57,885 nt of DNA from a virus (Duplodnaviria; Caudoviricetes), in IMG/VR virus record IMGVR_UViG_3300046170_000085, positions 1 to 57,885 of that record, one strand, 5' to 3'. Shown here piece after piece: positions 2,337 through 34,900 of the stretch. The notes beneath the pieces were generated by a model. It was given only the letters and a program-made list of their open reading frames with translations, was not told where the DNA came from and ran no database searches. Made by a program: the position numbers and the translations under genes. Position 1 is the stretch's first letter; every line of letters starts with the position of its first letter.

Positions 2337-2547
2337 CATCTGGATCTTCTTCGACAGATAGTTGTACTCCGACCCCACCGAATAACTTAATCATCTCGTC
2401 ACAAAGATGCTCGGCATCTTCTAGGATCTCATCATCCCCTGTGTCAGCGGCAAGATGCAATGTCATGCCCACAAGTTCCATGAGATGTTTGACCTGAACA
2501 GGATGCATTTCTCTAAGACCGACTGTTTTAATCTTTTCTGGTTTCAT
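2305..2547 (-). CDS. Hypothetical protein
   Basis: ATG at 2547 overlaps the polymerase stop (ATGA coupling). Confidence 0.6.
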   Translation of the reverse strand: MKPEKIKTVGLREMHPVQVKHLMELVGMTLHLAADTGDDEILEDAEHLCDEMIKLFGGVGVQLSVEEDPDVNHDGSQSVH

Positions 2548-4451
2548 TCGATTTCTCCCCAATTATCTTTGAGTTCATCGTCTACTTTAGAGGGGACTCT
2601 CAAGACATCCGACAACCCGTTTTCCATTATGTGCTTGATGTTGTGCGCTTGATCGTCGCCCTCTACTGAGAAGCATAACTCATCATGCACCGTTAGCATA
2701 GGCAAAAGTCCTTCTTTGTAGCAATCTGCCATAGCTTTTTTAGTTTGATCCGCAGCTGAACCTTGGATCAATTTGTTTAACGCCTTGTAAGTAAAGGCTC
2801 TTCTTAGAGGTTGACCATATGTTTTCATGGCCTCCTCGTATGGTAATGGTTTCTTATACCCGAAGGTTCGAGGCTCCCAAAGATGGAAGCGGCACCGCCT
2901 ACCCAACAGGGTTCTAATGTGTCCGAACTTATCTGCCTGTCTACTCGCAATGTCCGCAAGGTTCTTAACAAACGGAACCTTCTCTCTGTGTGTATCCAGT
3001 AAATCCCCTGCTTCTTCTGGTGATATATCTAACTGCGCTGCCAGTTTACCTTTGCCCATGCCATACATGATTCCCAGGTTTACAACCTTGGCTTCCTTAC
3101 GCTTGATTCCTGCAATGTCTGCCACCATCTGGTGTAGATCCACATCACCTGTGTTGTATTCGTCAACAATCTTATCGACAATCGGGTGCTTGTACTCACC
3201 CTTCAGGCTTGCTGCAAAGTGCACCAGTAACCTCGGCTCTTGGCTTGAGTAATCAAACGACCCCCACTTGCACCCTTGCTCTGGTATAAACAGACCACGG
3301 ATTAGTTTCTTGATCTCGGGATCTCGTGCCGGAATCTGCTGAAGGTTTGGGTTTGAACTAGAGAACCTACCCGTCACCGTGCCTCCGTCATCGGATCGTA
3401 GCTGATGGAACTCACAGTTGATCCTACCGTTGTGCGAGTGCTTGATGATTGTATCTATGAACGTGCTATCCGCCTTGTCAAATTCACGTAGCTTGACGAT
3501 CATTTGTGCAATTGGGTGGGCATGTGTATTGAGATACTGTTTGGTGAATGACGGTGCCCCTGCTTCAGTCTCAGGGTACTTCAGTCCTAGCTCCTCGAAC
3601 ACCGCAGCTACAGATGCAGCCGCCCATGGTTCTATCTTGATCTTTGTCTGTCGGTGGATCTCTTCCCTCAGTTCTTTGCCCTTGGCTTTGAGTAGAGTCT
3701 TGGCTTGATCTGCCTTGTCCAAGTCCACACGCACACCTAGCTGACGCATGTCACACATCATAGGTATCAGGCTAGTCTCCAAATCCCAGATGTTCCATAG
3801 GTCTTGCTTCTCCAGTTCTATCTTCAGTCGCTCCCACAAACGCAGGGTCATGCCTGCATCCTGTTCAGCATACCGTCCAACAAACTCAGGTGGTAGCTTG
3901 TACATCTCAGCCTTGGGATCAAAGCCCCACTCTGCTGCTGCAACACGTAGAAGTTTCTCATCCTTGCGCTCATCGAGGTAGTCTCTGCCAAGGTTATTCA
4001 AGCTGTATGACCAACGGTTCTCGTCCACCACCGCACCAGTAATCATGGTATCGATGATCCGACCCTCTACCTTTATGCCCTCGGCACGTAACCAACCCAG
4101 ATCATACGTGGCGTTGTGCATGATCTTGTCTATATCTGGTGTTGCCATCTGTTTCTGTAGCCATCGGAGTGCAATCTTTGCATCCATGTTGTGACCGTTC
4201 TCATGTCGGATAGGAAAGTATCCTTCCCAGTCTCCTGCTGCTACGGCTATGCCTACGATGTACCCGTCCTTACGCACCCATCCAGGGCCAAGCTTAATTA
4301 GATTCGGGTCACATGTCTCAAGGTCAACGGCTATCTGTTTGTAGCCCGTCAGGTCTGGAAACTCCGATGGTATATTCCATGTCAGTTCCTTACCTTGGTT
4401 CATCTGCTTGGCAATGATGTAGTCTTTCTCAAACATCTCAGTCTGTTTCAT
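2544..4451 (-). CDS. polA: Family A DNA polymerase with 3'-5' exonuclease
   Basis: ExoI AVDLET, HNATYD, TGRFSSSNPNLQQIP, motif A DYSSQEPR, motif B KVVNLGIMYG, IQGSAAD, motif C TVHDEL; start trimmed to MKQTEMF. Confidence 0.97.
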   Translation of the reverse strand: MKQTEMFEKDYIIAKQMNQGKELTWNIPSEFPDLTGYKQIAVDLETCDPNLIKLGPGWVRKDGYIVGIAVAAGDWEGYFPIRHENGHNMDAKIALRWLQKQMATPDIDKIMHNATYDLGWLRAEGIKVEGRIIDTMITGAVVDENRWSYSLNNLGRDYLDERKDEKLLRVAAAEWGFDPKAEMYKLPPEFVGRYAEQDAGMTLRLWERLKIELEKQDLWNIWDLETSLIPMMCDMRQLGVRVDLDKADQAKTLLKAKGKELREEIHRQTKIKIEPWAAASVAAVFEELGLKYPETEAGAPSFTKQYLNTHAHPIAQMIVKLREFDKADSTFIDTIIKHSHNGRINCEFHQLRSDDGGTVTGRFSSSNPNLQQIPARDPEIKKLIRGLFIPEQGCKWGSFDYSSQEPRLLVHFAASLKGEYKHPIVDKIVDEYNTGDVDLHQMVADIAGIKRKEAKVVNLGIMYGMGKGKLAAQLDISPEEAGDLLDTHREKVPFVKNLADIASRQADKFGHIRTLLGRRCRFHLWEPRTFGYKKPLPYEEAMKTYGQPLRRAFTYKALNKLIQGSAADQTKKAMADCYKEGLLPMLTVHDELCFSVEGDDQAHNIKHIMENGLSDVLRVPSKVDDELKDNWGEIE

Positions 4452-4725
4452 TGTCAAACTCCGCACCCAGTGCACTGTATCCGCACTTGTCGATCCACGA
4501 ATCCTTGTGGTCTATCGTTTCTAACAAGCGACAGGTCTTCACCCAGTCCATCATCAGAGCTACGTGCTTGGCTGTAATCTTACCGTGGGTGTTCAGTGCA
4601 TCAGTGACTATGACATTCCATCCCGTTGCTATCCTGTCGAAGTTATCCTTGGCATCACCGTAGTCCTTGGCTCTGTTACCATTGATCAACTGCTTCGCCG
4701 TATCCAAGTAATCGTTACGTTTCAT
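4438..4725 (-). CDS. Conserved phage protein (DUF6378-like)
   Basis: R..DYG....NF.RIA..W ... DSWID.CGYSALG pattern. Confidence 0.7.
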   Translation of the reverse strand: MKRNDYLDTAKQLINGNRAKDYGDAKDNFDRIATGWNVIVTDALNTHGKITAKHVALMMDWVKTCRLLETIDHKDSWIDKCGYSALGAEFDNETD

Positions 4726-6251
4726 ATTTCATACCTATATTTTTTATCTGACTCAATTAGGTAGAGGTTTTGTTTTGTTCTTGTAACGGCAACATAAAAT
4801 ATTCTGTGCTCGTCCTCGGGATGTTTACCCTCTACGCAGTTCTTGGTGGATCCCAAATACACCGCTACGTTATCGTCTTCCCCTCCTTTCATGGCGTGGA
4901 TCGTTGATAACTTGATCCTCGGTTGCTTGTATATACTCTCTCCTCTACGCTCGATGGCGCGGATGTATATCTGTTCCTCCTCTGACAGACGCACCACGTC
5001 CATCGGGTGTGTGTTCTTCGGGGATAAGAGTCCATAATCAGATGCTAGATCCTCCCATGTCAAGGGCTGCTCTGGATCAGCAGCGTCTAGTAACTTAGCT
5101 GACCCTCTCTTGACTACAGGATTGTCTCCTATCTTCGGCACAGTTTTATAAAACTCCTTGATCCGTCCAAGGTACAATGCCTTTCCACCTACCAAGTCTG
5201 CCCATGTAGCCATAGCATCCAACTTCTTTTGTGAGACAGACGCATGACCCTTACGGCTGTAGAAATATCCTGCATCACTCAACGATTCAGCTATCTCTTT
5301 CACAAAGCTGTTGGTTCGAGCCATGATTGTCCATGACCCTTTGTCCAATGGTAGATTCCAAAGGCTACCCACAACCTTGACCATACCCTCGTCATCCTTG
5401 GGGAAGAACTCTTTCTCCAGTCTCCCTGGTATGTGGTCAGAGATACGCATAGCAAGCCTCCAGACGCTCTGTGGTAAGCGATAGGACTGGTTGAGTACTT
5501 CTACATGGTCGGAAGCTTTGATGAATCTCTGAACGTCTACGGAAGTCCAACGGTGGATTGCTTGATCGTCATCCCCTGCAATCAGAACTTCATCCGCAGT
5601 CAGTGCCATCTTCTCTACCATCGTCCACTGCAATGGTGTCAGGTCTTGGGCTTCATCCACAATCAATAGATCAAGGTTGGGTGTTTCACAAATCTCTATG
5701 TACTTGGAGATCATGTCAGTGAAATCTATTTTGTTTGTCTTGAGTTTATATTCAATTAATTGATTATGAATCTGAACCAACTTAGAGTAATCCAAAGTGT
5801 AGTCTTCTTCGTAGTTATACTCAAAGTCCAAGGACTCTTCCCGATAGATTGACCGCATGATAATCTGTAGATACTTGGCTCCCGATCCTCCTATCGGTGG
5901 TATCGTAACACCATCGTCAATGGAGGTGGCATCTGCTCCATCAAACGCCACCCCCAACATGCGACCAAGAGTTTTAAAATCCTCTCGGTCCATGACATCA
6001 GTACTCTTCAAGCCCAGTCCGTGATAACCAGTGGCATGGAGAGTTCTGAAATGCGGAAAGTCATTCTTAGTCAGGTTGAACTTAGCACATGCTCGATCAA
6101 CAAACTCCCCGATAGCTTTGGTAGTAAACGATACCACACCTATACGTGATGGGTGTACCCCTTCTTGCAGTTTCTCCTGCACTCTTTCGATTAACGTGTA
6201 AGTCTTACCACAACCGGGTGGCCCAAGTATCAGGGTTGCATTAGGTATCAC
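4722..6251 (-). CDS. UvrD/Rep-like SF1 helicase
   Basis: GPPGCGKT, VDEAQD, GDDDQAI, QSYR, STIHAMKGGE, FYVAVTRTK; probable GTG start at 6251. Confidence 0.93.
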   Translation of the reverse strand: MIPNATLILGPPGCGKTYTLIERVQEKLQEGVHPSRIGVVSFTTKAIGEFVDRACAKFNLTKNDFPHFRTLHATGYHGLGLKSTDVMDREDFKTLGRMLGVAFDGADATSIDDGVTIPPIGGSGAKYLQIIMRSIYREESLDFEYNYEEDYTLDYSKLVQIHNQLIEYKLKTNKIDFTDMISKYIEICETPNLDLLIVDEAQDLTPLQWTMVEKMALTADEVLIAGDDDQAIHRWTSVDVQRFIKASDHVEVLNQSYRLPQSVWRLAMRISDHIPGRLEKEFFPKDDEGMVKVVGSLWNLPLDKGSWTIMARTNSFVKEIAESLSDAGYFYSRKGHASVSQKKLDAMATWADLVGGKALYLGRIKEFYKTVPKIGDNPVVKRGSAKLLDAADPEQPLTWEDLASDYGLLSPKNTHPMDVVRLSEEEQIYIRAIERRGESIYKQPRIKLSTIHAMKGGEDDNVAVYLGSTKNCVEGKHPEDEHRIFYVAVTRTKQNLYLIESDKKYRYEI

Positions 6252-6420
6252 GACGCTTCTCCAACCACTGCTTGATTTCCTCCCGATCCCACCGACTCGC
6301 TGCACGTTGAGCGTCAGCGTTGCCAAGCTTGTAGGGTTTAGGAAAGTCCCCGTCATTTACCCATTTGTATATGGCAGACTCGGATACACCGAGCCAGTCT
6401 GCTACATCTTTAGCTTTCAT
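6241..6420 (-). CDS. AlpA/excisionase-like HTH protein
   Basis: MKAKDVADWLGVSESAIYKWVNDGDFPKPYKLG...RW...EI..W. Confidence 0.85.
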   Translation of the reverse strand: MKAKDVADWLGVSESAIYKWVNDGDFPKPYKLGNADAQRAASRWDREEIKQWLEKRRDT

Positions 6421-6424
6421 AAAA

Positions 6425-7960
6425 CTAGAACGGTATGTCATTATCTATCTCCTGTACTGGCAGATCCATTTCATTGTTCTCAAATGATGGCACCCACCAA
6501 ACTCTCACCGTGGTTCTTGATCCATCTTCCTTGTTAATATTTTTGTGACCATGACATTCATGGTTGTCATTAAATCTCTTCAATTGTTCCTGCACCTGTG
6601 CCCTGGTGTAAGCCGTAAACCTTCTGTTAAATAGAAACTCCATCAGCCCTGCTATTGTAAAGGATGTATACCCTTGGTTATCTGTCCATGGTTTACCTTG
6701 CAGCATCTCCTCTGGGTGCATAGCACGGATCCTACTGGTACAGAACTGACGCAACAAAGCTTTGAACTCTCCGAACACGGTTAGTTCCTCCGGCACCTCG
6801 GACTTAACTCCCTCTGAGTACAGCTTCTGTAGTAGCTGTTGCCACTTAGCAGGGCGGATAGTCGGAGGCACAAGTTGCTCTTGCTCCATACACGCACGTT
6901 GAAACAGGCTTTGGTTCTGTAGCTGCTCCGTGTTTAACTGGATACGTTTCCCTGCCACCGTTAGAAAATACAGGCGCGGTTCCGATAGGATGATCTGCAA
7001 GCTTCCGATCTCAAGAGACTCGGCCCCTGCATCTCCGACACCATACTTTGTAGACAGGCACAGTTCCTTGTCACAGAAACTTTTGAACGGCTCCTGTTCG
7101 CAGGTATAGAAGTATTCTTTTTTCTCCAGGCTTTTCTGTAATGCCAGAACTTCTTTGGCATCGAGCGGTGGAGAACACAGAGTCTGGTTAAAAGTTTCCA
7201 TCTCTGCTTTCCAGTTGTCACTGTGCTTCATCCGACAGTACACACCGATCATAAACAGTTTCTTGTTGCGTTCTTCTCCAGTCGCGCCGTCAGAGAACAG
7301 ATGTTGCAAGCAAGGAGGTCCGTCTTTGAAGTACTTTCGGGGTTTCTTGGTTCGACCTTTCTCAAGTACAGCTACTGAGGTTCGCCTGATTTCTATGGCA
7401 TCCAAGAACTCCTTCAGTTCCATGGCCTCAACCTTATCATTGAAGCAATACCTCTGTGGTATCTCAGCATTGAAATAAGGGAGGTTAATAAAGTTCCCGA
7501 CATCTCCACGTTCAGACAGGATCCTATCTTGCTTCGGGAATATCTCACAGCCACTGTGCCCCAAGGCTACAGCCATCTCTAGTAAATACTCTCGGACAAC
7601 CTTGGCTTGCTCGTATTCTTCCAAGAATAAATACAGATGTGCTCCACCTGACTTGGATCTGCAATGCAGCAGCGGTAGCTTCTGTCTTTGTATTCTCGCT
7701 TGGAGTTCGTTGTGGTCTAGATCATATATGTCTATGTCCAACGCACCCCACTTGCACTTGTTATCTTCGTTGATCGGGATTGCCCCGACACCCTGCTCAC
7801 CCTGGATGTGTCCTTGCATAAGTTCTAATGTGAGCGGCTCCCGTACAATACGACTCTCAGCATCAGCCTTGCCATTGCGACCAATGCGTCCAACTGTAGT
7901 GGTGCCATGCGCAACCTTCGATCCTTCAAAGGCTGACAGCATTCTTTTATGAAGTGACAT
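6425..7960 (-). CDS. Primase-polymerase (AEP-like) replication protein
   Basis: GAIPI..CKWGALDID, SKSGGAHLY, GNFINLPY motifs, Cys-rich region; lies between the helicase and SSB-like genes. Confidence 0.75.
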   Translation of the reverse strand: MSLHKRMLSAFEGSKVAHGTTTVGRIGRNGKADAESRIVREPLTLELMQGHIQGEQGVGAIPINEDNKCKWGALDIDIYDLDHNELQARIQRQKLPLLHCRSKSGGAHLYLFLEEYEQAKVVREYLLEMAVALGHSGCEIFPKQDRILSERGDVGNFINLPYFNAEIPQRYCFNDKVEAMELKEFLDAIEIRRTSVAVLEKGRTKKPRKYFKDGPPCLQHLFSDGATGEERNKKLFMIGVYCRMKHSDNWKAEMETFNQTLCSPPLDAKEVLALQKSLEKKEYFYTCEQEPFKSFCDKELCLSTKYGVGDAGAESLEIGSLQIILSEPRLYFLTVAGKRIQLNTEQLQNQSLFQRACMEQEQLVPPTIRPAKWQQLLQKLYSEGVKSEVPEELTVFGEFKALLRQFCTSRIRAMHPEEMLQGKPWTDNQGYTSFTIAGLMEFLFNRRFTAYTRAQVQEQLKRFNDNHECHGHKNINKEDGSRTTVRVWWVPSFENNEMDLPVQEIDNDIPF

Positions 7961-12728: not shown

Positions 12729-12969
12729 CCTTGACCACCTCCCACACGCCCTCGGCTCCTGCGTCTATATTAGTATCCCGAATCAAACCTTTGTTGTGCA
12801 AAGCAGATAGCTGCGGACGCACAATCGATAGCTTTAAACCCATCCGGTCTGCGAGTTGCCGAGCGGTTCCTGGGCCTCGATCGAGTTCAGCCAGGACTTG
12901 CTCCTTCCGAGTAAGTGCCTTGTTGTTTTGTCTCTTGCTAGTTAGCTTCTTCCAAAATTCTTTGATCAT
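12721..12969 (-). CDS. Winged-helix DNA-binding protein
   Basis: TRKEQVLAEL..GPGTARQLADRMGL....VRPQLSAL...GLI. Confidence 0.75.
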   Translation of the reverse strand: MIKEFWKKLTSKRQNNKALTRKEQVLAELDRGPGTARQLADRMGLKLSIVRPQLSALHNKGLIRDTNIDAGAEGVWEVVKDV

Positions 12970-13456
12970 CTTCTACTCCTCTCAATGCTTGAGTGATTTC
13001 TTCTAATGGTGTTAAGTCTAACCCAAAACTTTCCGCACATCCACGATAACGTGAAAGCCACGCAGCCATTGATGTTGCGGCCTGTCTTCTGAGTTCTTGT
13101 TGATCGTTCTCATTGTCAGGATCAAAAGCCACATAACCACCACCGTTCTTTCTGTTCTCTCTCGGAGAGATCAACGCAGGATATTCCCTGGTCTTTATTA
13201 TAATCGGAAGTTGTTCTTGTTCTTGTGATTCTTTGATCACGATCCTTAGTCCACTTGCCATCTGACGAGCCAAACCAATTCGATATTGTCTCGCAGCTTC
13301 TATATCATCCATACCATAAAACCATTCGTAAGCCTCATGATCAGGCTGTACACCTAACCAATCCACAAACTCATGTGGTACAAACATATTGCGACCTGAC
13401 GCCGCCAAGTATTCGTCAATAATTCTTTGACGTTCTTTCTTTGGAAAACCAGCCAT
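12938..13456 (-). CDS. Partner protein downstream of the pentamer array (172 aa)
   Basis: True start MAGFPKK at 13456 with AAGGAG RBS; HEAYEWFYGMDDIEAARQYRIGLARQM motif. Confidence 0.8.
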   Translation of the reverse strand: MAGFPKKERQRIIDEYLAASGRNMFVPHEFVDWLGVQPDHEAYEWFYGMDDIEAARQYRIGLARQMASGLRIVIKESQEQEQLPIIIKTREYPALISPRENRKNGGGYVAFDPDNENDQQELRRQAATSMAAWLSRYRGCAESFGLDLTPLEEITQALRGVEDDQRILEEAN

Positions 13457-13485
13457 ATTTTTTCTCCTTCTATTAGCTGTTAATT

Positions 13486-14031
13486 GACCGCCGTACCTTG
13501 CCGGACCTAGGCATACCAAGACCCGTAGCACCGCAACGCGACCGCCATACCATGACGCACCGAACCGACCATACCGATCCGTACTCCATCAAACCAAGAC
13601 CGCCTTGACTTAACATGACCTAACTTAACGTGACCTAACGGAACTGACCTTACCGCACCCCGACCGCCTCGCCTGACTGGACCCCGACCGAACACACCTG
13701 ACCCCGACACACCTCGACCGCCTTGACCAACCTGACCTCTCCACGCCCCGCCGAAAGCTGCCCTGTCTTGACCGCCTCAACCCGACTTACCCAAACACCC
13801 ATAACATACCCAACCCCGCGCCGACCGACTTACCGCAACAAAACGGACCACAACATAACTGATCTCAACGGACCTCACCCAGACCGCCTTGACCCGCCTG
13901 TCCTTGCCTTAACGTACCAAAACACAACGCATCCCGTCGTAACACACCCAGACCGCCTGACCCAACCAGACCGTACCCCGCCCTAACCGAACGTGCTCGA
14001 CCGCACCTCGCCCAGACCGTCTAACCTTGAC
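13486..14031 (-). ncRNA. Candidate guide-RNA array: nine units of 5-nt G(G/T)Y-NN modules separated by GGCGGTC (VIPR-like)
   Basis: Plus-strand GACCGCC or a 1-nt variant at 13486, 13540, 13598, 13662, 13716, 13770, 13823, 13882, 13951, 14015; spacers are NN-R(A/C)C pentamers. Confidence 0.85.
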
Positions 14032-14040
14032 CAAATAGAT

Positions 14041-14057
14041 GGGGGCACTCGGCCCCC
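14041..14057. promoter_or_regulatory. GC-rich hairpin between the RAMP gene stop and the array (leader, processing or terminator element)
   Basis: GGGGGC-ACTCG-GCCCCC; followed on the + strand by a T run. Confidence 0.65.
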
Positions 14058-14066
14058 GATCCTTTT

Positions 14067-14849
14067 TTATTCCGCAGCTATGAGAGTAACGTCTCTTCGT
14101 GATCGTTCTTCATCCAAGAACTGCATCAACTCATTGGTCTGCTCGTCAGCATACACTGGGTTGTCCAATGCCTCTTGCTGAACATCGCGTCCCTCTTTCA
14201 TGAGTTCATCCCAGTCTTTCTGGTAGTCGCCCATGCTGTCTTCTGTCAGCACATCAAACGTACCAAACGAACCACGCCCCTTCTCCTGTCGGAAGTCTCC
14301 AATTCCAACAATCGAGCCTGCGTTTGTCAGCAACGATACAATCGAATACTGACTGAGCGTTGGCTGAACATACGCAATGTCAACCTCTGCACACCACCGA
14401 GGTAGATACGCACGGGTTCTCATGTCTGGGGTCTTGTTCATGTCCGCAGATCGAACCATGTCAATCTTGAGTTGCGGTGTACCCCAGATCTGAACGTGGG
14501 TTTGTGGTAGAAAAATCAACCGCTGAACACTGGTCTTGGTTATACCGTCCGTTTCCAATGCCGCCGTCGCCATCGCGCCCTTGACCCCTGGAGCAGGAAA
14601 ACATAACAGAGTTTCTCCAAACGGTTTCTTGTACACCGAATCTCGGAACTCCTGTTCTGGGTTGTGTTTGATCTCCTTACGTTGCGCGGCTGTCTTCTTG
14701 CCGCCACCGATTAAAAGATCACGCATGGCCTTGCTGCTCATGCTGTTGAAATATAATGGGGTCGTGCCCATCATGCGAAGCTTAATTCTTCCTCTTTTCA
14801 ATGGTTGAATTTCTAGTGTTGCTTCTTGTGGTACTTTCTTAGTTGCCAT
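14067..14849 (-). CDS. Stand-alone Cas7/RAMP-like protein (putative effector of the array)
   Basis: IKLRMMGTTPLYF first strand, FPAPGVKGAM (like the RAMP PGSSLKG helix), RAYLPRW, C-terminal glycine-rich loop GIGDFRQEKGRGSFGTF. Confidence 0.75.
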   Translation of the reverse strand: MATKKVPQEATLEIQPLKRGRIKLRMMGTTPLYFNSMSSKAMRDLLIGGGKKTAAQRKEIKHNPEQEFRDSVYKKPFGETLLCFPAPGVKGAMATAALETDGITKTSVQRLIFLPQTHVQIWGTPQLKIDMVRSADMNKTPDMRTRAYLPRWCAEVDIAYVQPTLSQYSIVSLLTNAGSIVGIGDFRQEKGRGSFGTFDVLTEDSMGDYQKDWDELMKEGRDVQQEALDNPVYADEQTNELMQFLDEERSRRDVTLIAAE

Positions 14850-15060: not shown

Positions 15061-16176
15061 TCATCGAACCTCCATGTAACTTTCGATTAACCCTTGCGCG
15101 ACTGGCGCTGTGATGGCGTTGCCGTAGGCGCGGAGGCGTCCCACTCGGGCGGTAGCCCCATGAGCCAACGGGAATGACTCGGGTCTAACTGGCCTCCACT
15201 TTCCATCTCGGCACAAGAGCCAGTCAACATCTGACCACGCGCCGTTAGTCTCATTGGCCCTGCCATCTTCGACATCTGGGTCAGACTGCTCCCCGTCATT
15301 CGATCCGTGATCCCCGAACCTCCCCTCGTTCCGTCCGTTGCCGATGGCGTTGTCCACCCCGACATCTGAGATTGCTCCGCCAGATTGTGACCCCGACTGT
15401 TCCACTCCTTGACCGACTCTGGTTTCGCCGCTCCCTTGTGATCCGCTGTGGTCGGTGTCGCCCATCCCCACAGTACCGCTACCACTTCCTCCAGATTGGA
15501 TTTGTTGCGGTTCGCTAACTTGTCTCGGTTCTGTTCCGTGATCTCGGGATGAACTAAGTTCGCTCTCGGTGTCGGCCACCCCGTCAGTTGTGCCGCTACG
15601 TCCAACGTGTCCGTGCTGATCTTGCCGTTGCGTATCCGACCCCCTTGGTATCCACCCTTGTGATCTCGGGTTGTCGGTGTCGGCCACGAACCAAAGCCTT
15701 TGCCTGATGTGCGGTGCACCGAAGCTCGCAGAGCAGAGATCGAAAGCCCCGAGGGCGTAATCCGCTCCTTCCATGTCAGCTTGTACAAGGTCGATCCAAC
15801 CAAGTCCGTCTTTACTCGCAACCTGTTCTCCAAAGACTGTTGAAGGTCGGCACTCTTCGATGAGGTGAAACCAGTGAGGCCAGAGGTGCCGCTCGTCAGC
15901 CATCCCTTTTCTCGTGCCTGCACCGCTGAAAGGTTGGCAAGGACACGATCCCGTCCAGACGGGTCTGTCGTCTTCCCATCCCGATTGTCTGAGGGCACGA
16001 CTCCAGACTCCAATTCCTGCGAAGAAGTGACATTGAGTAAATTCATAAAGCTCTTCTGGTTTGACATCCGATATACTCCTTTCATCGACCACACCATCGG
16101 CAATGTGACCATCTCTAATTAAGTTTCGTAACCATGCCGCAGCATAAGGATCTATCTCGTTATAGTAGGCACTCAT
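15061..16176 (-). CDS. C5-cytosine DNA methyltransferase, large (alpha) polypeptide
   Basis: FFAGIG (motif I), GSCPCQPFS (IV), FGEQV (VI), HIRQRLW (VIII), RLRAYGNAI (X); motif IX missing from this frame. Confidence 0.9.
15087..16112 (-). CDS. Nested alternative-frame polypeptide (beta subunit) of the C5-MTase; true start uncertain
   Basis: Four W[PAT]TP repeats and C-terminal [18 protein letters not shown] (motif IX-like). Confidence 0.75.
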
Positions 16177-22358: not shown

Positions 22359-25921
<3,563 letters not shown>

Positions 25922-25925
<4 letters not shown>

Positions 25926-33785: not shown

Positions 33786-34247
33786 ATGGCTGACACTAGA
33801 ACACCGCGTGAAAACGCAACACGAGATAAAGAAACTCGCAGAAAACCTTGGGCACCGCCCAGTCACCTTGAAGCACCTGAAGCCCCGAAGGGTTTTGTGC
33901 ATCGATGGATACGAATTGCAATGCGTGGGGAGGAGGACAAGATGAACGTCCATGCCAAGCTACGTGAAGGATGGGAACCCGTCCGCGCAGATCAGTATCC
34001 ACACTATGAAGCTCCTGTCATCGATGATGGCAAATATCAGGGAGTGATTGGACAAGGAGGACTGATGCTGTGCCGTATACCTGAAGAGACAGCGCATGAG
34101 AGAAACGAGTATTACGGGGGCCGAACCCGCGAACAAATGACTGCTGTGGATCAGGACTTGATGAAGGAACAACATCCTTCAATGCCGATTACTAATAATC
34201 GGCAAAGTCGTGTAACCTTCGGGGGATCCAACGGAGACTCCGATTAA
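33786..34247 (+). CDS. Conserved head-module protein
   Basis: HRWIR, LREGWEPV, GGLMLCRIP; AAGGAG RBS. Confidence 0.7.
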   Translation: MADTRTPRENATRDKETRRKPWAPPSHLEAPEAPKGFVHRWIRIAMRGEEDKMNVHAKLREGWEPVRADQYPHYEAPVIDDGKYQGVIGQGGLMLCRIPEETAHERNEYYGGRTREQMTAVDQDLMKEQHPSMPITNNRQSRVTFGGSNGDSD

Positions 34248-34264
34248 CATAAAGGATTGCTACT

Positions 34265-34900
34265 ATGGCAAACACTAACGGTGCATTCGGACTTCGTCCG
34301 ATTGGAGTAGTCGGTCAGGCTACTAACACCACTGGTGCGACCGAGTATCGTATAGCAGCCGGAAATACAAACACGATCTTTCAAGGCTCACCTGTTATCC
34401 CGCTATCAACTGGTTTTATTGACAAAGTTGGCGCGGCAACTGGTGGCACTGTAGGTCTCGTAGGTGTTTTCTGGGGTTGTGAATACGTTTCGTCCACCAC
34501 TGGTGAAACAATATTTTCTAACAACTGGCCTGGTTCTGGCGCGGATACTAACCATCCCGTCAAAGCTTTCGTGTATGACAACCCAATGCAAACATTCGTC
34601 ATCTGTTCAGACGCTTCACTAACTAGCGCAGCAACTGCTAGAGGACATGTGTTCGCAAACGCAAATTTTGCAGACGGTGCTGCCGGATCTTCTACGACTG
34701 GTATCTCTTCCGCAAAGTTGGGTGTTAGCACAATTAACACCACTGCAAACTTAAATTTGAGAATCATGGGTATCCAAGATGACCCTGAAAACTCAGATTT
34801 TACCGCAGCGGGTATCCCTGTAATTGTTCGTTTAAACAACTCCTTCAATTCCGCCAATGGCGCGATTGCAGGCGGTACTGTTTCAACGACTGGCGTATAA
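34265..34900 (+). CDS. Minor capsid/decoration protein
   Basis: MAN..GAFGLRP, beta-rich, immediately before the MCP. Confidence 0.65.
   Translation: MANTNGAFGLRPIGVVGQATNTTGATEYRIAAGNTNTIFQGSPVIPLSTGFIDKVGAATGGTVGLVGVFWGCEYVSSTTGETIFSNNWPGSGADTNHPVKAFVYDNPMQTFVICSDASLTSAATARGHVFANANFADGAAGSSTTGISSAKLGVSTINTTANLNLRIMGIQDDPENSDFTAAGIPVIVRLNNSFNSANGAIAGGTVSTTGV

What the first reader, a model, noticed from the sequence alone, without database searches (positions are those of the whole stretch)
13486..14031. Array grammar: nine units of length 5n+4 with constant triplets and variable dinucleotides
Delimiter GACCGCC starts at 13486, 13540, 13598, 13662, 13716, 13770, 13823 (GACCGAC), 13882, 13951, 14015 (GACCGTC). 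Spacings are 54, 58, 64, 54, 54, 53, 59, 69, 64. Seven of nine are exactly 5n+4 and the other two are one base short. Example at 13598: TT-GAC TT-AAC AT-GAC CT-AAC TT-AAC GT-GAC CT-AAC GG-AAC TG-ACC TT-ACC GC-ACC CC-GAC then CGCC. On the RNA strand each unit is GGCG plus 10-13 x [G(G/T)Y-NN]. The triplet tolerates GTY as well as GGY, and no two units share an NN string, so this is not simple satellite slippage. The 4-nt GGCG phase break may mark processing or filament boundaries.
Basis: seen in the sequence. Interest (0 to 1): 0.9.

Follow-up and report, generated by a model that had tools for sequence, protein, structure and literature searches.

The report
Phage VIPR guide-RNA array, staggered type
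The five-base repeat tract is the guide-RNA array of a VIPR system, a CRISPR-like way for a marine phage to switch off genes of rival phages that was first described in 2026, so it is real but an already known kind.

Summary
Window 13486-14031 has a strong 5-nt period (lag-5 identity 0.449 against 0.302 in shuffles, z 7.9), ten GACCG[CAT]C delimiters at the stated places, and nine units of which seven are 5n+4 long.

On the minus strand each unit reads GGCG + (G-K-Y-N-N)n.

It is the vrRNA array of a VIPR system (bioRxiv 10.64898/2026.04.26.720920).
- The gene just upstream (14067-14849, minus) folds as a Cas7-type RAMP. Its family profile hits the solved SUSP1 Vipr protein at E 2.5e-8.
- The trio of gene, array and a 173-aa partner gene recurs in IMG/VR relatives.
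- Under the published one-base-skip rule, guide vr6 spells 20 of 20 bases of a motif in the large terminase of other phages, in at least 26 contigs, with the skipped base at the codon wobble position.
- Guides vr3, vr7 and vr9 give near-perfect hits to an HNH endonuclease, a small lipoprotein and a large ORF.
- No guide matches the phage's own DNA.

The array has no tails and matches the paper's "staggered" type. Position 2 of the triplet accepts G or T. This scan has met VIPR before on other DNA. Verdict: a new member of a known kind.

The parts
14067..14849 (-). vipr gene: 260-aa stand-alone Cas7-type RAMP protein
   Evidence: AF2 model has pLDDT 96.1. Top Foldseek PDB hits are all Csm3, Cas7 or Cmr4, with 68 hits at E<=1e-3. 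A 106-sequence family profile hits PDB 36pp_D 'SUSP1 Vipr protein' at E 2.5e-8. R146, D185 and R187 align with SUSP1 R138, D177 and R179. No Pfam or NCBIfam family; phrog_4652, unknown function.
14041..14057 (-). G+C-rich hairpin between the vipr stop codon and the array
   Evidence: Found by the scan. Present in 27 of 27 distinct relatives printed, with different stem sequences that keep the pairing. There is no consistent T-run on either strand. Role unknown.
14022..14040 (-). Conserved leader (..ATTTGGTCAAGGTTA) in front of the first delimiter
13958..14021 (-). vr1: 12 pentamers, with a degenerate delimiter GACG
   Evidence: The unit is conserved at 59-62 of 64 bases in nine relatives. A pattern of its 3' nine NN gave 0 hits in IMG/VR.
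13889..13957 (-). vr2: 13 pentamers
   Evidence: Not scanned for targets.
13830..13888 (-). vr3: 11 pentamers; candidate target is an HNH endonuclease gene
   Evidence: Of 8 hits, 6 lie in HNH ORFs with the skip base at codon position 3. Best match is 21 of 22 NN bases.
13777..13829 (-). vr4: irregular unit of 53 nt, with one base missing inside pentamer 6
   Evidence: Not scanned.
13723..13776 (-). vr5: 10 pentamers
   Evidence: The scan of its first 8 NN gave 11 hits that look like background.
13669..13722 (-). vr6: 10 pentamers; target is the large terminase gene of other phages
   Evidence: 20 of 20 NN bases match in at least 26 IMG/VR contigs. The NN string is kept in relatives L035 and L058 while the triplets drift.
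13605..13668 (-). vr7: 12 pentamers; candidate target is a small lipoprotein gene (phrog_30566)
   Evidence: Best match is 23 of 24 NN bases.
13547..13604 (-). vr8: irregular unit of 58 nt, with one base missing
   Evidence: Identical in L004 and in a contig of run X3.
13493..13546 (-). vr9: 10 pentamers; candidate target is a large ORF of unknown function
   Evidence: 19 of 20 NN bases match in 3 contigs.
13486..13492 (-). Terminal delimiter GGCGGTC, followed by AATTAA and the ribosome-binding site of the next gene
12938..13459 (-). 173-aa conserved partner gene, a candidate vap
   Evidence: It sits directly after the array in 37 distinct relatives. No Pfam, PHROG, NCBIfam or PDB sequence match. 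The AF2 model is mostly helical, pLDDT 77. Foldseek PDB gave 0 hits at E<=1e-3.

Best explanation
The tract is the guide-RNA (vrRNA) array of a VIPR system carried by an uncultured marine tailed phage.

Inferred mechanism. The minus strand is transcribed, probably together with the vipr gene upstream. The RNA is divided at the GGCG|GTC joints into nine guides of 10-13 pentamers.

Mechanism by analogy with the solved SUSP1 complex. Vipr protomers bind one per pentamer. They hold G1, K2 and Y3 and present the two variable bases. The filament then pairs with double-stranded DNA that reads NN-x-NN-x, skipping every third base.

Shown here. That gapped code, read from the window's guides, spells conserved codons of rival phages' genes, with the skipped base at the wobble position, and spells nothing in the phage's own DNA. 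The targets are a large terminase, an HNH endonuclease, a small lipoprotein and one large ORF.

Inferred outcome. The rival phage's packaging and lysis genes are silenced during co-infection or in lysogens.

Arrays differ between near-identical phages, unit by unit, with break points at the delimiters. The repertoire therefore turns over by cassette exchange.
For: (1) Protein.
- The fold is that of a Cas7-type RAMP.
- The family profile hits SUSP1 Vipr at E 2.5e-8 over the thumb-to-G-loop stretch.
- The residues that the structure paper names for G1, G2 and Y3 contacts (R138, D177, R179) align with R146, D185 and R187. R187 is invariant and R146 and D185 are at least 90% conserved in 106 sequences.

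(2) RNA grammar.
- G1 is 95%, position 2 is G 57% / T 36%, and position 3 is Y 95%.
- Positions 4 and 5 carry 1.94 and 1.98 bits over the 287 unique 5n+4 units.

(3) Linkage.
- 76 of 80 relatives of the protein have the period-5 zone directly downstream. The 4 without have almost no downstream flank.

(4) Targets.
- In 98 of 120 the frame that puts the skip base at codon position 3 is open for 400 codons or more.
- 26 of 120 match all 20 NN bases.
- 3 of 3 ORFs tested are TerL_ATPase + TerL_nuclease.

(5) Rule specificity.
- In five whole target records, hits at >=90% NN were 19 real against 0 shuffled for skip 1.
- The other rules gave 0/1, 0/0 and 0/0 for skips 0, 2 and 3.
- 10 of the 19 are vr6 or its L035 relative and so are circular. 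The other 9 come from unrelated guides of seven other loci.

(6) Selection on the NN.
- vr6 differs from its L058 relative at 1 of 20 NN bases but 8 of 30 triplet bases.
- It differs from its L035 relative at 2 of 20 NN bases and 5 of 30 triplet bases.

(7) No self-target.
- The best self match of the window's seven regular guides is 13-17 of 20-26 bases.
- There is no excess over shuffles.
Against: - No direct RNA evidence. Only assembled contigs from RNA libraries cover part of the array (X3, 13426-13719). They show neither strand nor ends, and may be DNA carry-over.
- Processing at GGCG|GTC is inferred.
- The sequence match to SUSP1 Vipr covers only about 50 residues. The Foldseek library (entries to 2026-04-08) did not return a Vipr chain.
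- Position 2 is T in a third of pentamers, whereas the solved complex reads G there. The stacking residue W178 is F186 here.
- Two of nine units have a frame slip.
- Of six guides scanned, vr1 gave nothing and vr5 only background-like hits.
- Hits for vr3, vr7 and vr9 were selected for 16 of 16 bases. Only their extensions (5/6, 7/8, 3/4) and their clustering in one gene family count as evidence.
- The 173-aa partner has no recognisable DNA-binding or nuclease domain.
- The VIPR type could not be assigned, because the paper's classification tables are in supplements I could not open.
Confidence: 0.93

Rival explanations
1. It is a VIPR locus, but it destroys its targets rather than silencing them. 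The conserved 173-aa partner would act as, or recruit, a nuclease, as the paper proposes for types III-V.
For: The partner gene is present in 37 distinct relatives. It matches no known DNA-binding fold either. The paper (section 9, read) says some vap genes encode nucleases or helicases.
Against: No nuclease or helicase motif or family was found. The paper links nuclease types to defence islands of cells, whereas this locus sits in a phage early region.
Confidence: 0.1
2. The array is a decaying or decoy array. Its RNAs would no longer guide this phage's own Vipr. They would be relics, or would serve to mislead a rival's Vipr, as satellite-borne solo vrRNAs do.
For: Two of nine units are frame-slipped. 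The Oct 2026 preprint (abstract and passages read) describes solo vrRNAs that redirect another element's Vipr.
Against: The vipr gene is intact and its fold model is confident. It is tightly linked to the array in 76 of 80 relatives. Guides match essential genes of other phages perfectly. The NN strings are conserved against drifting triplets.
Confidence: 0.04
3. It is a binding tract or sponge for some other ring or filament RNA-binding protein (TRAP-like triplet plus 2-nt spacer sites), or a C-rich Rho-loading tract on the plus strand.
For: This was my first guess, from the triplet/spacer grammar and from the plus strand being 43% C and 16% G. A hairpin with a T-run reads on the plus strand at 14040-14068.
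Against: No such protein gene is linked. The linked gene is a Vipr homologue. The T-run is not conserved in relatives. The variable dinucleotides carry target information, which a sponge would not need.
Confidence: 0.01
4. It is a DNA-level element (origin, packaging or recombination site, or satellite repeat), or a translated repeat protein.
For: It is a tandem repeat in an intergenic gap of a replication and early region.
Against: No ORF spans it, and unit lengths are not multiples of 3. TRF sees only weak fragments. The variable positions are near maximal entropy yet conserved within guide lineages. Rfam has no match.
Confidence: 0.01

Closest known systems
VIPR systems with 'staggered' vrRNA arrays (bioRxiv 10.64898/2026.04.26.720920, Results section 9 and legend of fig. 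S18, read; the figure itself was not visible)
   Same: A Vipr gene is followed by a long array of GGY/NN-type pentamers without tails. Successive guides abut with a 1-nt overlap. Here the joint is GGC-G-GTC, a pentamer one base short, which is what gives units of 5n+4.
   Different: I cannot see their example or say which type it belongs to. Here position 2 of the triplet is G or T. The paper states that this architecture was not among those confirmed by sRNA-seq.
Type II VIPR of Escherichia phage SUSP1 (same paper; structures in 10.64898/2026.04.26.720927; PDB 36pp)
   Same: The protein is homologous (profile E 2.5e-8) and keeps the thumb arginine and the G-loop D-x-R. Guides have 10-13 pentamers. 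The one-base-skip rule applies, with skip bases on codon wobble positions. Targets are genes of competing mobile elements. A small partner gene is present.
   Different: - SUSP1 Vipr is 202 aa; this one is 260 aa, with extra C-terminal helices.
- SUSP1 guides each end in a conserved 3' tail with a pseudoknot that caps the filament; here there is no tail.
- W178 is F186 here.
- The gene order here is vipr, then array, then partner.
- The targets here are terminase, HNH and lysis-like genes of phages rather than a satellite's recombinase.
Non-canonical VIPR repeat motifs (bioRxiv 10.64898/2026.10.21.760802, passages read)
   Same: That paper describes 5-nt-period arrays next to Vipr-like folds whose fixed trinucleotide departs from GGY, for example WGT/NN, TGH/NN and GAC/NN.
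   Different: G-K-Y is not named in the passages I read. Their non-canonical clusters have 10 repeats each, whereas units here vary from about 7 to 14.
Class 1 CRISPR-Cas backbone (Cas7/Csm3 on crRNA)
   Same: The protein fold is the same (top Foldseek hits). Both use a thumb that breaks the guide-target duplex periodically.
   Different: There are no CRISPR repeats and spacers. None of the 20 window ORFs I scanned is a Cas protein. The period is 5 rather than 6 nt, the guide is gapped, and the system is phage-borne.
TRAP (trp RNA-binding attenuation protein) sites; recalled from memory, not tested
   Same: Triplets separated by 2-nt spacers and read by a protein oligomer.
   Different: The triplet is different (G/U-A-G). 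TRAP has one site of about 11 repeats, the spacers carry no information, and no TRAP-like gene is present here.

Membership tests
VIPR system | Vipr protein: a minimal stand-alone RAMP with an RRM core, a glycine-rich loop and a thumb | tested here: met
   The AF2 model has pLDDT 96.1. Foldseek PDB gave 68 hits at E<=1e-3, with the top ranks all Csm3, Cas7 or Cmr4. The family profile hits 36pp_D SUSP1 Vipr at E 2.5e-8. The G-loop reads GIGDFRQEKGRGSFG, with G182, G184, R187, G191 and G196 invariant in 106 sequences.
VIPR system | Residues that read the GGY motif in the solved complex (R138, D177, W178, R179) | tested here: inconclusive
   R146, D185 and R187 align with R138, D177 and R179. W178 is F186 here and is not conserved in the wider family. 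H17, K33, E71 and M72 lie outside the aligned stretch and could not be placed.
VIPR system | vrRNA made of 9-16 tandem pentamers with a conserved GGY and a hypervariable NN | tested here: met
   Units in the window have 10-13 pentamers. Entropy is 0.37, 1.36 and 1.11 bits at phases 1-3 against 1.90 and 1.96 at phases 4-5. The family-wide figures agree. The deviation is that position 2 is G or T.
VIPR system | Array in the intergenic DNA flanking vipr, without a CRISPR array or cas operon | tested here: met
   The array starts 36 nt after the vipr stop codon. The same order is seen in relatives. None of the 20 window ORFs scanned against Pfam is a Cas protein. No CRISPR finder was run.
VIPR system | Targets obey the one-base-skip rule, with skip bases mostly at codon wobble positions, on either strand, and with no self-target | tested here: met
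   vr6 matches 20 of 20 bases in TerL genes. Skip 1 gave 19 hits against 0 in shuffles, and the other rules 0-1. vr7 and vr9 sites lie on the strand opposite the gene. No self-target was found.
VIPR system | vrRNAs are expressed, cut to about 100 nt or less, and co-purify with Vipr | not testable with these tools
   Only Logan contigs of RNA libraries were on offer. X3 covers 13426-13719 with 0 differences, but shows no strand or ends.
VIPR system | An accessory vap gene beside vipr | tested here: inconclusive
   A 173-aa gene always follows the array. It has no detectable family, and its fold matches nothing at E<=1e-3. I could not compare it with vap1-6 because those sequences are in supplements.
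VIPR type II (SUSP1-like) | Each vrRNA ends in a conserved structured 3' tail (a pseudoknot) | tested here: not met
   Units abut directly. Only the 7-nt delimiter is shared between them.
VIPR staggered array | Successive vrRNAs share a 1-nt overlap, the end of one marking the start of the next | tested here: met
   The geometry is met. 287 of 371 unique units are 5n+4, which is one pentamer short by one base at GGC-G-GTC. That RNA ends lie there was not tested.
CRISPR-Cas class 1 | A repeat-spacer array of about 60-80 nt period, with adaptation genes | tested here: not met
   The period is 5 nt, and units of 53-69 nt share only 7 nt. No Cas1- or Cas2-like family was found among the ORFs scanned.

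The most novel reading that the evidence does not exclude
In this marine clade the 7-nt joint GGCGGTC would do three jobs at once.
- It breaks the Vipr filament register, so that tail-less guides are measured and cut without a capping pseudoknot.
- It lets the protein accept U at triplet position 2 (F186 in place of the stacking tryptophan).
- It serves as the recombination joint through which whole guides are swapped between co-infecting phages.

That third job would be a pre-CRISPR way of updating a guide repertoire. It would explain why phages with 95-98% identical flanks share only one of nine guides.
Probability: 0.25. Interest if true: 0.6.

Novelty: new member of a known kind. Interest (0 to 1): 0.35.

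Why it matters
VIPR is only months old in print. Its experimental cases are two type II systems from enteric and Pseudomonas phages, plus heterologous sRNA-seq of types III and V.

This locus and its roughly 160 IMG/VR relatives add three things:
- A large natural data set for the tail-less staggered architecture, which the discovery paper did not confirm by RNA sequencing.
- More than 300 distinct natural guides.
- Readable targets. The guides aim at the DNA-packaging genes (large terminase, HNH endonuclease) and a lysis-like gene of temperate phages. The terminase site also occurs in genomes labelled Rhodobacteraceae, Paracoccaceae, Rhodospirillales and Halomonas.

The targets hint at the host range of an uncultured phage and at who competes with whom in seawater.

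The data also give a clean natural illustration of the wobble-proof code: many synonymous variants of one terminase motif are all matched 20 of 20.

None of this changes what VIPR is thought to be.

Tried and rejected
- Rfam, at E<=1 over 12800-14800: no family.
- blastn of the array against GenBank phages: no match.
- tblastn of the protein against GenBank phages: only hypothetical proteins of Gordonia and Mycobacterium phages, at about 30% identity.
- First ideas dropped once the Vipr hit appeared: a TRAP-like ring-protein site, a Rho-loading C-rich RNA, a plus-strand transcript ended by the 14040 hairpin, two-tetrad G-quadruplexes, and a translated pentapeptide repeat.
- Guides of the family against the window itself, under skips 0-3: no excess over shuffled guides.
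- Guides against the flanks of relatives: none either. The skip-3 hits there were unmasked arrays in L009 and L027.
- vr1, 3' nine-NN pattern: 0 hits.
- vr5, eight-NN pattern: 11 hits, at most 17 of 20 bases, with the skip base at codon position 3 in 3 of 11. I treat this as background.
- Substitutions within guide lineages do not single out the NN. Variable columns are 13, 37, 46, 38 and 34 of 473 for phases 1-5. The NN are diverse between guides, not fast-mutating within one.
- Fold search of the 173-aa partner: nothing at E<=1e-3.
- A relative of the targeted terminase in the window: none. The record is 71% complete, and the tool warns that an empty answer shows nothing. Pfam found no terminase among ten large ORFs.
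- Read laying: parts of the array without cover in X1, X2 and X5, and the low shares of the other runs, say nothing either way.
- I tried to relate triplet bases to the target's skipped base for vr6 by eye and saw no relation.

Full report
**What is in the sequence**

The window is a whole IMG/VR virus record of 57,885 bases, estimated 71% complete. Between two minus-strand genes lies a 546-base tract (13486-14031). On the plus strand it is 43% C, 27% A, 16% G and 14% T.

Lag-5 identity is 0.449, against 0.302 +/- 0.019 in 2000 shuffles, with a maximum of 0.362.

Read on the minus strand, each unit is GGCG followed by pentamers G-K-Y-N-N. In the seven regular units:
- Phase 1 is G in 74 of 78 pentamers.
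- Phase 2 is G 38 / T 34.
- Phase 3 is T 47 / C 29.
- Phases 4 and 5 carry 1.90 and 1.96 bits.

Two units (vr4 and vr8) lack one base inside a pentamer. No reading frame crosses the tract. Rfam has nothing, and GenBank phages hold no similar DNA.

**How the identity was found**

My first guesses were a TRAP-like protein-binding RNA or a DNA element.

A look for relatives of the upstream 260-aa protein in IMG/VR gave 159 confirmed loci, of which 80 were kept. In 76 of those 80 a period-5 zone begins right after the gene. The four without have next to no downstream DNA.

The printed loci share one plan:
- the gene;
- a G+C hairpin;
- a short leader;
- 5 to 17 units delimited by GGCGGTC;
- a ribosome-binding site;
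- a gene of about 170 aa beginning MAGFPKKERQRIIDEYL or similar.

A plain phmmer search of the protein against PDB sequences then gave a weak hit to 36pp_D, 'SUSP1 Vipr protein' (E 0.017). That name led to three 2026 preprints on VIPR, Viral Interference Programmable Repeat.

**What the papers say**

I read these parts:
- The Results, the Discussion, five Methods sections (18, 20, 26, 27 and passages of 22) and the supplementary figure legends of 10.64898/2026.04.26.720920.
- Sections 5 and 6 and passages of 10.64898/2026.04.26.720927.
- The abstract and passages of 10.64898/2026.10.15.759431 and 10.64898/2026.10.21.760802.
- No supplements.

Their main points:
- Vipr is a minimal stand-alone RAMP.
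- vrRNAs have 9-16 YNNGG repeats in which GGY is fixed and NN is hypervariable.
- One protomer binds one repeat and forms a helical filament.
- The NN pair with DNA that has one skipped base between dinucleotides. The skipped base usually falls on the codon wobble position.
- Natural targets are competing satellites and prophages.
- There are seven types. Architectures include tailed arrays (type II), ribozyme-spaced arrays, single guides and 'staggered arrays with overlapping vrRNAs'. In the staggered arrays vrRNAs come from positions overlapping by 1 nt (fig. S18 legend).
- Only the ribozyme and single-guide forms were confirmed by sRNA-seq.
- A later preprint reports non-canonical trinucleotides such as WGT and TGH.

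**Testing the protein**

HMMER against 1.84 billion representatives found 2167 relatives at E<=1e-3 and 310 at E<=1e-30.

A profile of 106 of them hits SUSP1 Vipr at E 2.5e-8 over residues 148-196. A profile of 19 close relatives gave E 0.005.

In that alignment SUSP1 R138, D177, W178 and R179 fall on R146, D185, F186 and R187. The structure paper names those four residues for reading G1, G2 and Y3. R187 is invariant, and R146 and D185 are at least 90% conserved, in the 106 sequences. Position 186 is not conserved.

The AlphaFold model is confident (pLDDT 96.1, pTM 0.89). Its best PDB matches are all Cas7-family subunits: Csm3 of type III-A, Cas7 of type VII and Cmr4. There are 68 matches at E<=1e-3, with TM-scores 0.33-0.44 on the query. 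That Foldseek library ends on 2026-04-08 and returned no Vipr chain.

**Testing the RNA grammar across relatives**

In the window plus 80 loci, 77 of 81 have clustered delimiters. Of 371 distinct units, 287 are 5n+4.

In those 287:
- G1 is 95%.
- Position 2 is G 57% / T 36%.
- Position 3 is Y 95%.
- Positions 4 and 5 carry 1.94 and 1.98 bits.

The first and last NN of a unit lean towards A but stay variable, at 1.6-1.8 bits. The 4-nt GGCG is a pentamer with one spacer base instead of two, which is the geometry the paper calls staggered. There is no tail or pseudoknot, so the locus is not type II-like.

**Testing the targeting rule**

Guides of the whole family have no match above shuffled controls in the window under any skip rule, nor in the flanks of relatives.

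*vr6.* The NN string of vr6 is kept in two distant relatives while their triplets drift. Against L058 it differs at 1 of 20 NN and 8 of 30 triplet bases. Against L035 it differs at 2 of 20 and 5 of 30.

- Any match translates to [DE]VG[HQ]VRGP in that frame by construction, so the peptide itself is no evidence.
- What counts is that this frame is open for 400 codons or more in 98 of 120.
- 26 of 120 also match the last two NN.
- The wobble bases differ among the hits.
- 3 of 3 ORFs tested are large terminases, PF03354 + PF20441.
- The site follows the ..LAILDE.. stretch of the ATPase domain. I take that stretch to be Walker B from memory, not from a call.

*Other guides on the same records.* Five whole target records were fetched, two of them 90-91% complete at 35-38 kb. 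On these, the family's 301 guides gave 19 hits at >=90% NN under skip 1, against 0 for shuffled guides. Skips 0, 2 and 3 gave 0/1, 0/0 and 0/0. Ten of the 19 are vr6 or its L035 relative, by which the records were chosen. The other nine come from guides of L002, L004, L005, L018, L031, L037 and L062, and cluster in and around the terminase gene.

On the 120 loci, guides reaching >=95% NN numbered 8 under skip 1 and 0 under every other rule and in all controls.

*Genome scan.* The full ten-NN pattern in 185,579 species genomes gave 12 hits.
- 5 carry the terminase motif. They are records titled Rhodospirillales, Paracoccaceae, Rhodobacteraceae nBUS_22 and two Halomonas litopenaei.
- 7 are other frames in high-G+C genomes, which I take as chance.

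*vr3.* Eight hits. Six lie in HNH endonuclease genes with the skip at codon position 3, best 21 of 22. Pfam HNH was found in 4 of 4 tested.

*vr7.* Thirteen hits, best 23 of 24 and six at 22 of 24.
- Seven lie in a small ORF on the opposite strand.
- 4 of 4 tested are phrog_30566, with weak Rz-like spanin matches in 2.
- The one printed has a lipobox-like N-terminus and a hydrophobic C-terminus. I read that as spanin-like, by inference.

*vr9.* Nine hits, three at 19 of 20 in one 1232-aa ORF with no PHROG.

*vr5 and vr1.* vr5 gave only background-like hits and vr1 gave none.

**Turnover of the array**

L002 has flanks 95-98% identical to the window but shares only vr3 (97%). L004 shares vr8 and vr9. 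L005 and L006, whose flanks are 80-82% identical, share vr1 at 93%.

In contigs of other samples, single units of the window sit beside different neighbours. The loose ends fall at 13713, 13770, 13776, 13777, 13951 and 14015, which is at or within 3 nt of delimiters. One contig replaces 409 bases of array with 406 other bases between conserved flanks. Guides therefore move as cassettes.

Within a guide lineage the NN do not mutate faster than positions 2 and 3.

**What remains inferred**

- Transcription, strand and cutting are inferred from the motif's polarity and from co-orientation with vipr.
- The only RNA-library evidence is two 151-nt contigs, identical to 13426-13719, in an oligo-dT marine library. 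These cannot show strand or ends.
- Silencing as opposed to cleavage is taken from the type II experiments.
- The 173-aa partner is conserved in 37 distinct forms but has no family and no fold match.
- I could not assign the VIPR type, or say whether this clade is among the paper's 667 loci, because those tables are in closed supplements.

**Verdict**

The explanation is a published one: a VIPR locus with a staggered guide array.

The points particular to this locus are G or T at triplet position 2, the absence of tails, and the readable targets in rival phages' packaging and lysis genes.

Earlier notes of this scan describe VIPR loci on other DNA, including a staggered one and a marine one. 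I reached the same reading independently through the PDB hit.

Noticed in passing
window 14041-14057 and relatives: The hairpin between the vipr stop codon and the array keeps its pairing while its stem sequence changes between clades (GGGGGC/GCCCCC, GGGGCA/TGCCCC, GGGCGG/CCGCCC). It has no consistent T-run on either strand. It may stabilise the vipr mRNA end or mark the 5' end of the array transcript.
   Followed up: partly
L057, L067, L074 just after the array: A more distant clade has a second conserved hairpin (GTGGGCTGT.GTGGCCCAC) between the last delimiter and the partner gene. The window lacks it.
   Followed up: no
L005/L006 about 4830-4960; L045 4270-4360: Some relatives carry about 130-170 nt of unrelated DNA between the hairpin and the array. 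L045 has the hairpin plus leader twice.
   Followed up: no
window 15061-16176 (-) and 15087-16112 (-): A C-5 cytosine DNA methyltransferase gene (PF00145, phrog_363) is overlapped almost end to end by a second open frame of 341 codons on the same strand. The stretch is 57% G+C and the methylase has a Gly/Ser/Asp-rich insert.
   Followed up: no
window 6425-7960 (-) and 4722-6356 (-): A 511-aa protein with the AEP primase domain named after the TOTE conflict system (PF22548, E 9e-15) sits next to a UvrD-type helicase. It is probably the phage's replicative primase, but the family name is a defence one.
   Followed up: no
window 22359-25925 (+): A 1188-aa ORF has an acidic repeat stretch (residues 984-1039) that gives a below-threshold match to a trypanosome repeat family. 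This is likely low complexity in a structural protein.
   Followed up: no
window 2544-4475 (-): The DNA polymerase A is about 50% identical to those of Pelagibacter phages HTVC023P and HTVC027P and of two uncultured marine phages. The VIPR targets, however, point to phages of Rhodobacterales-like or Halomonas hosts.
   Followed up: partly
G002 (L215/L216) 632 and 33861-34674: Guides from six different relatives' arrays converge on one 35-kb phage record. Four lie within about 800 bases at the terminase gene and one lies near the other contig end. This suggests a shared rival across the clade.
   Followed up: partly
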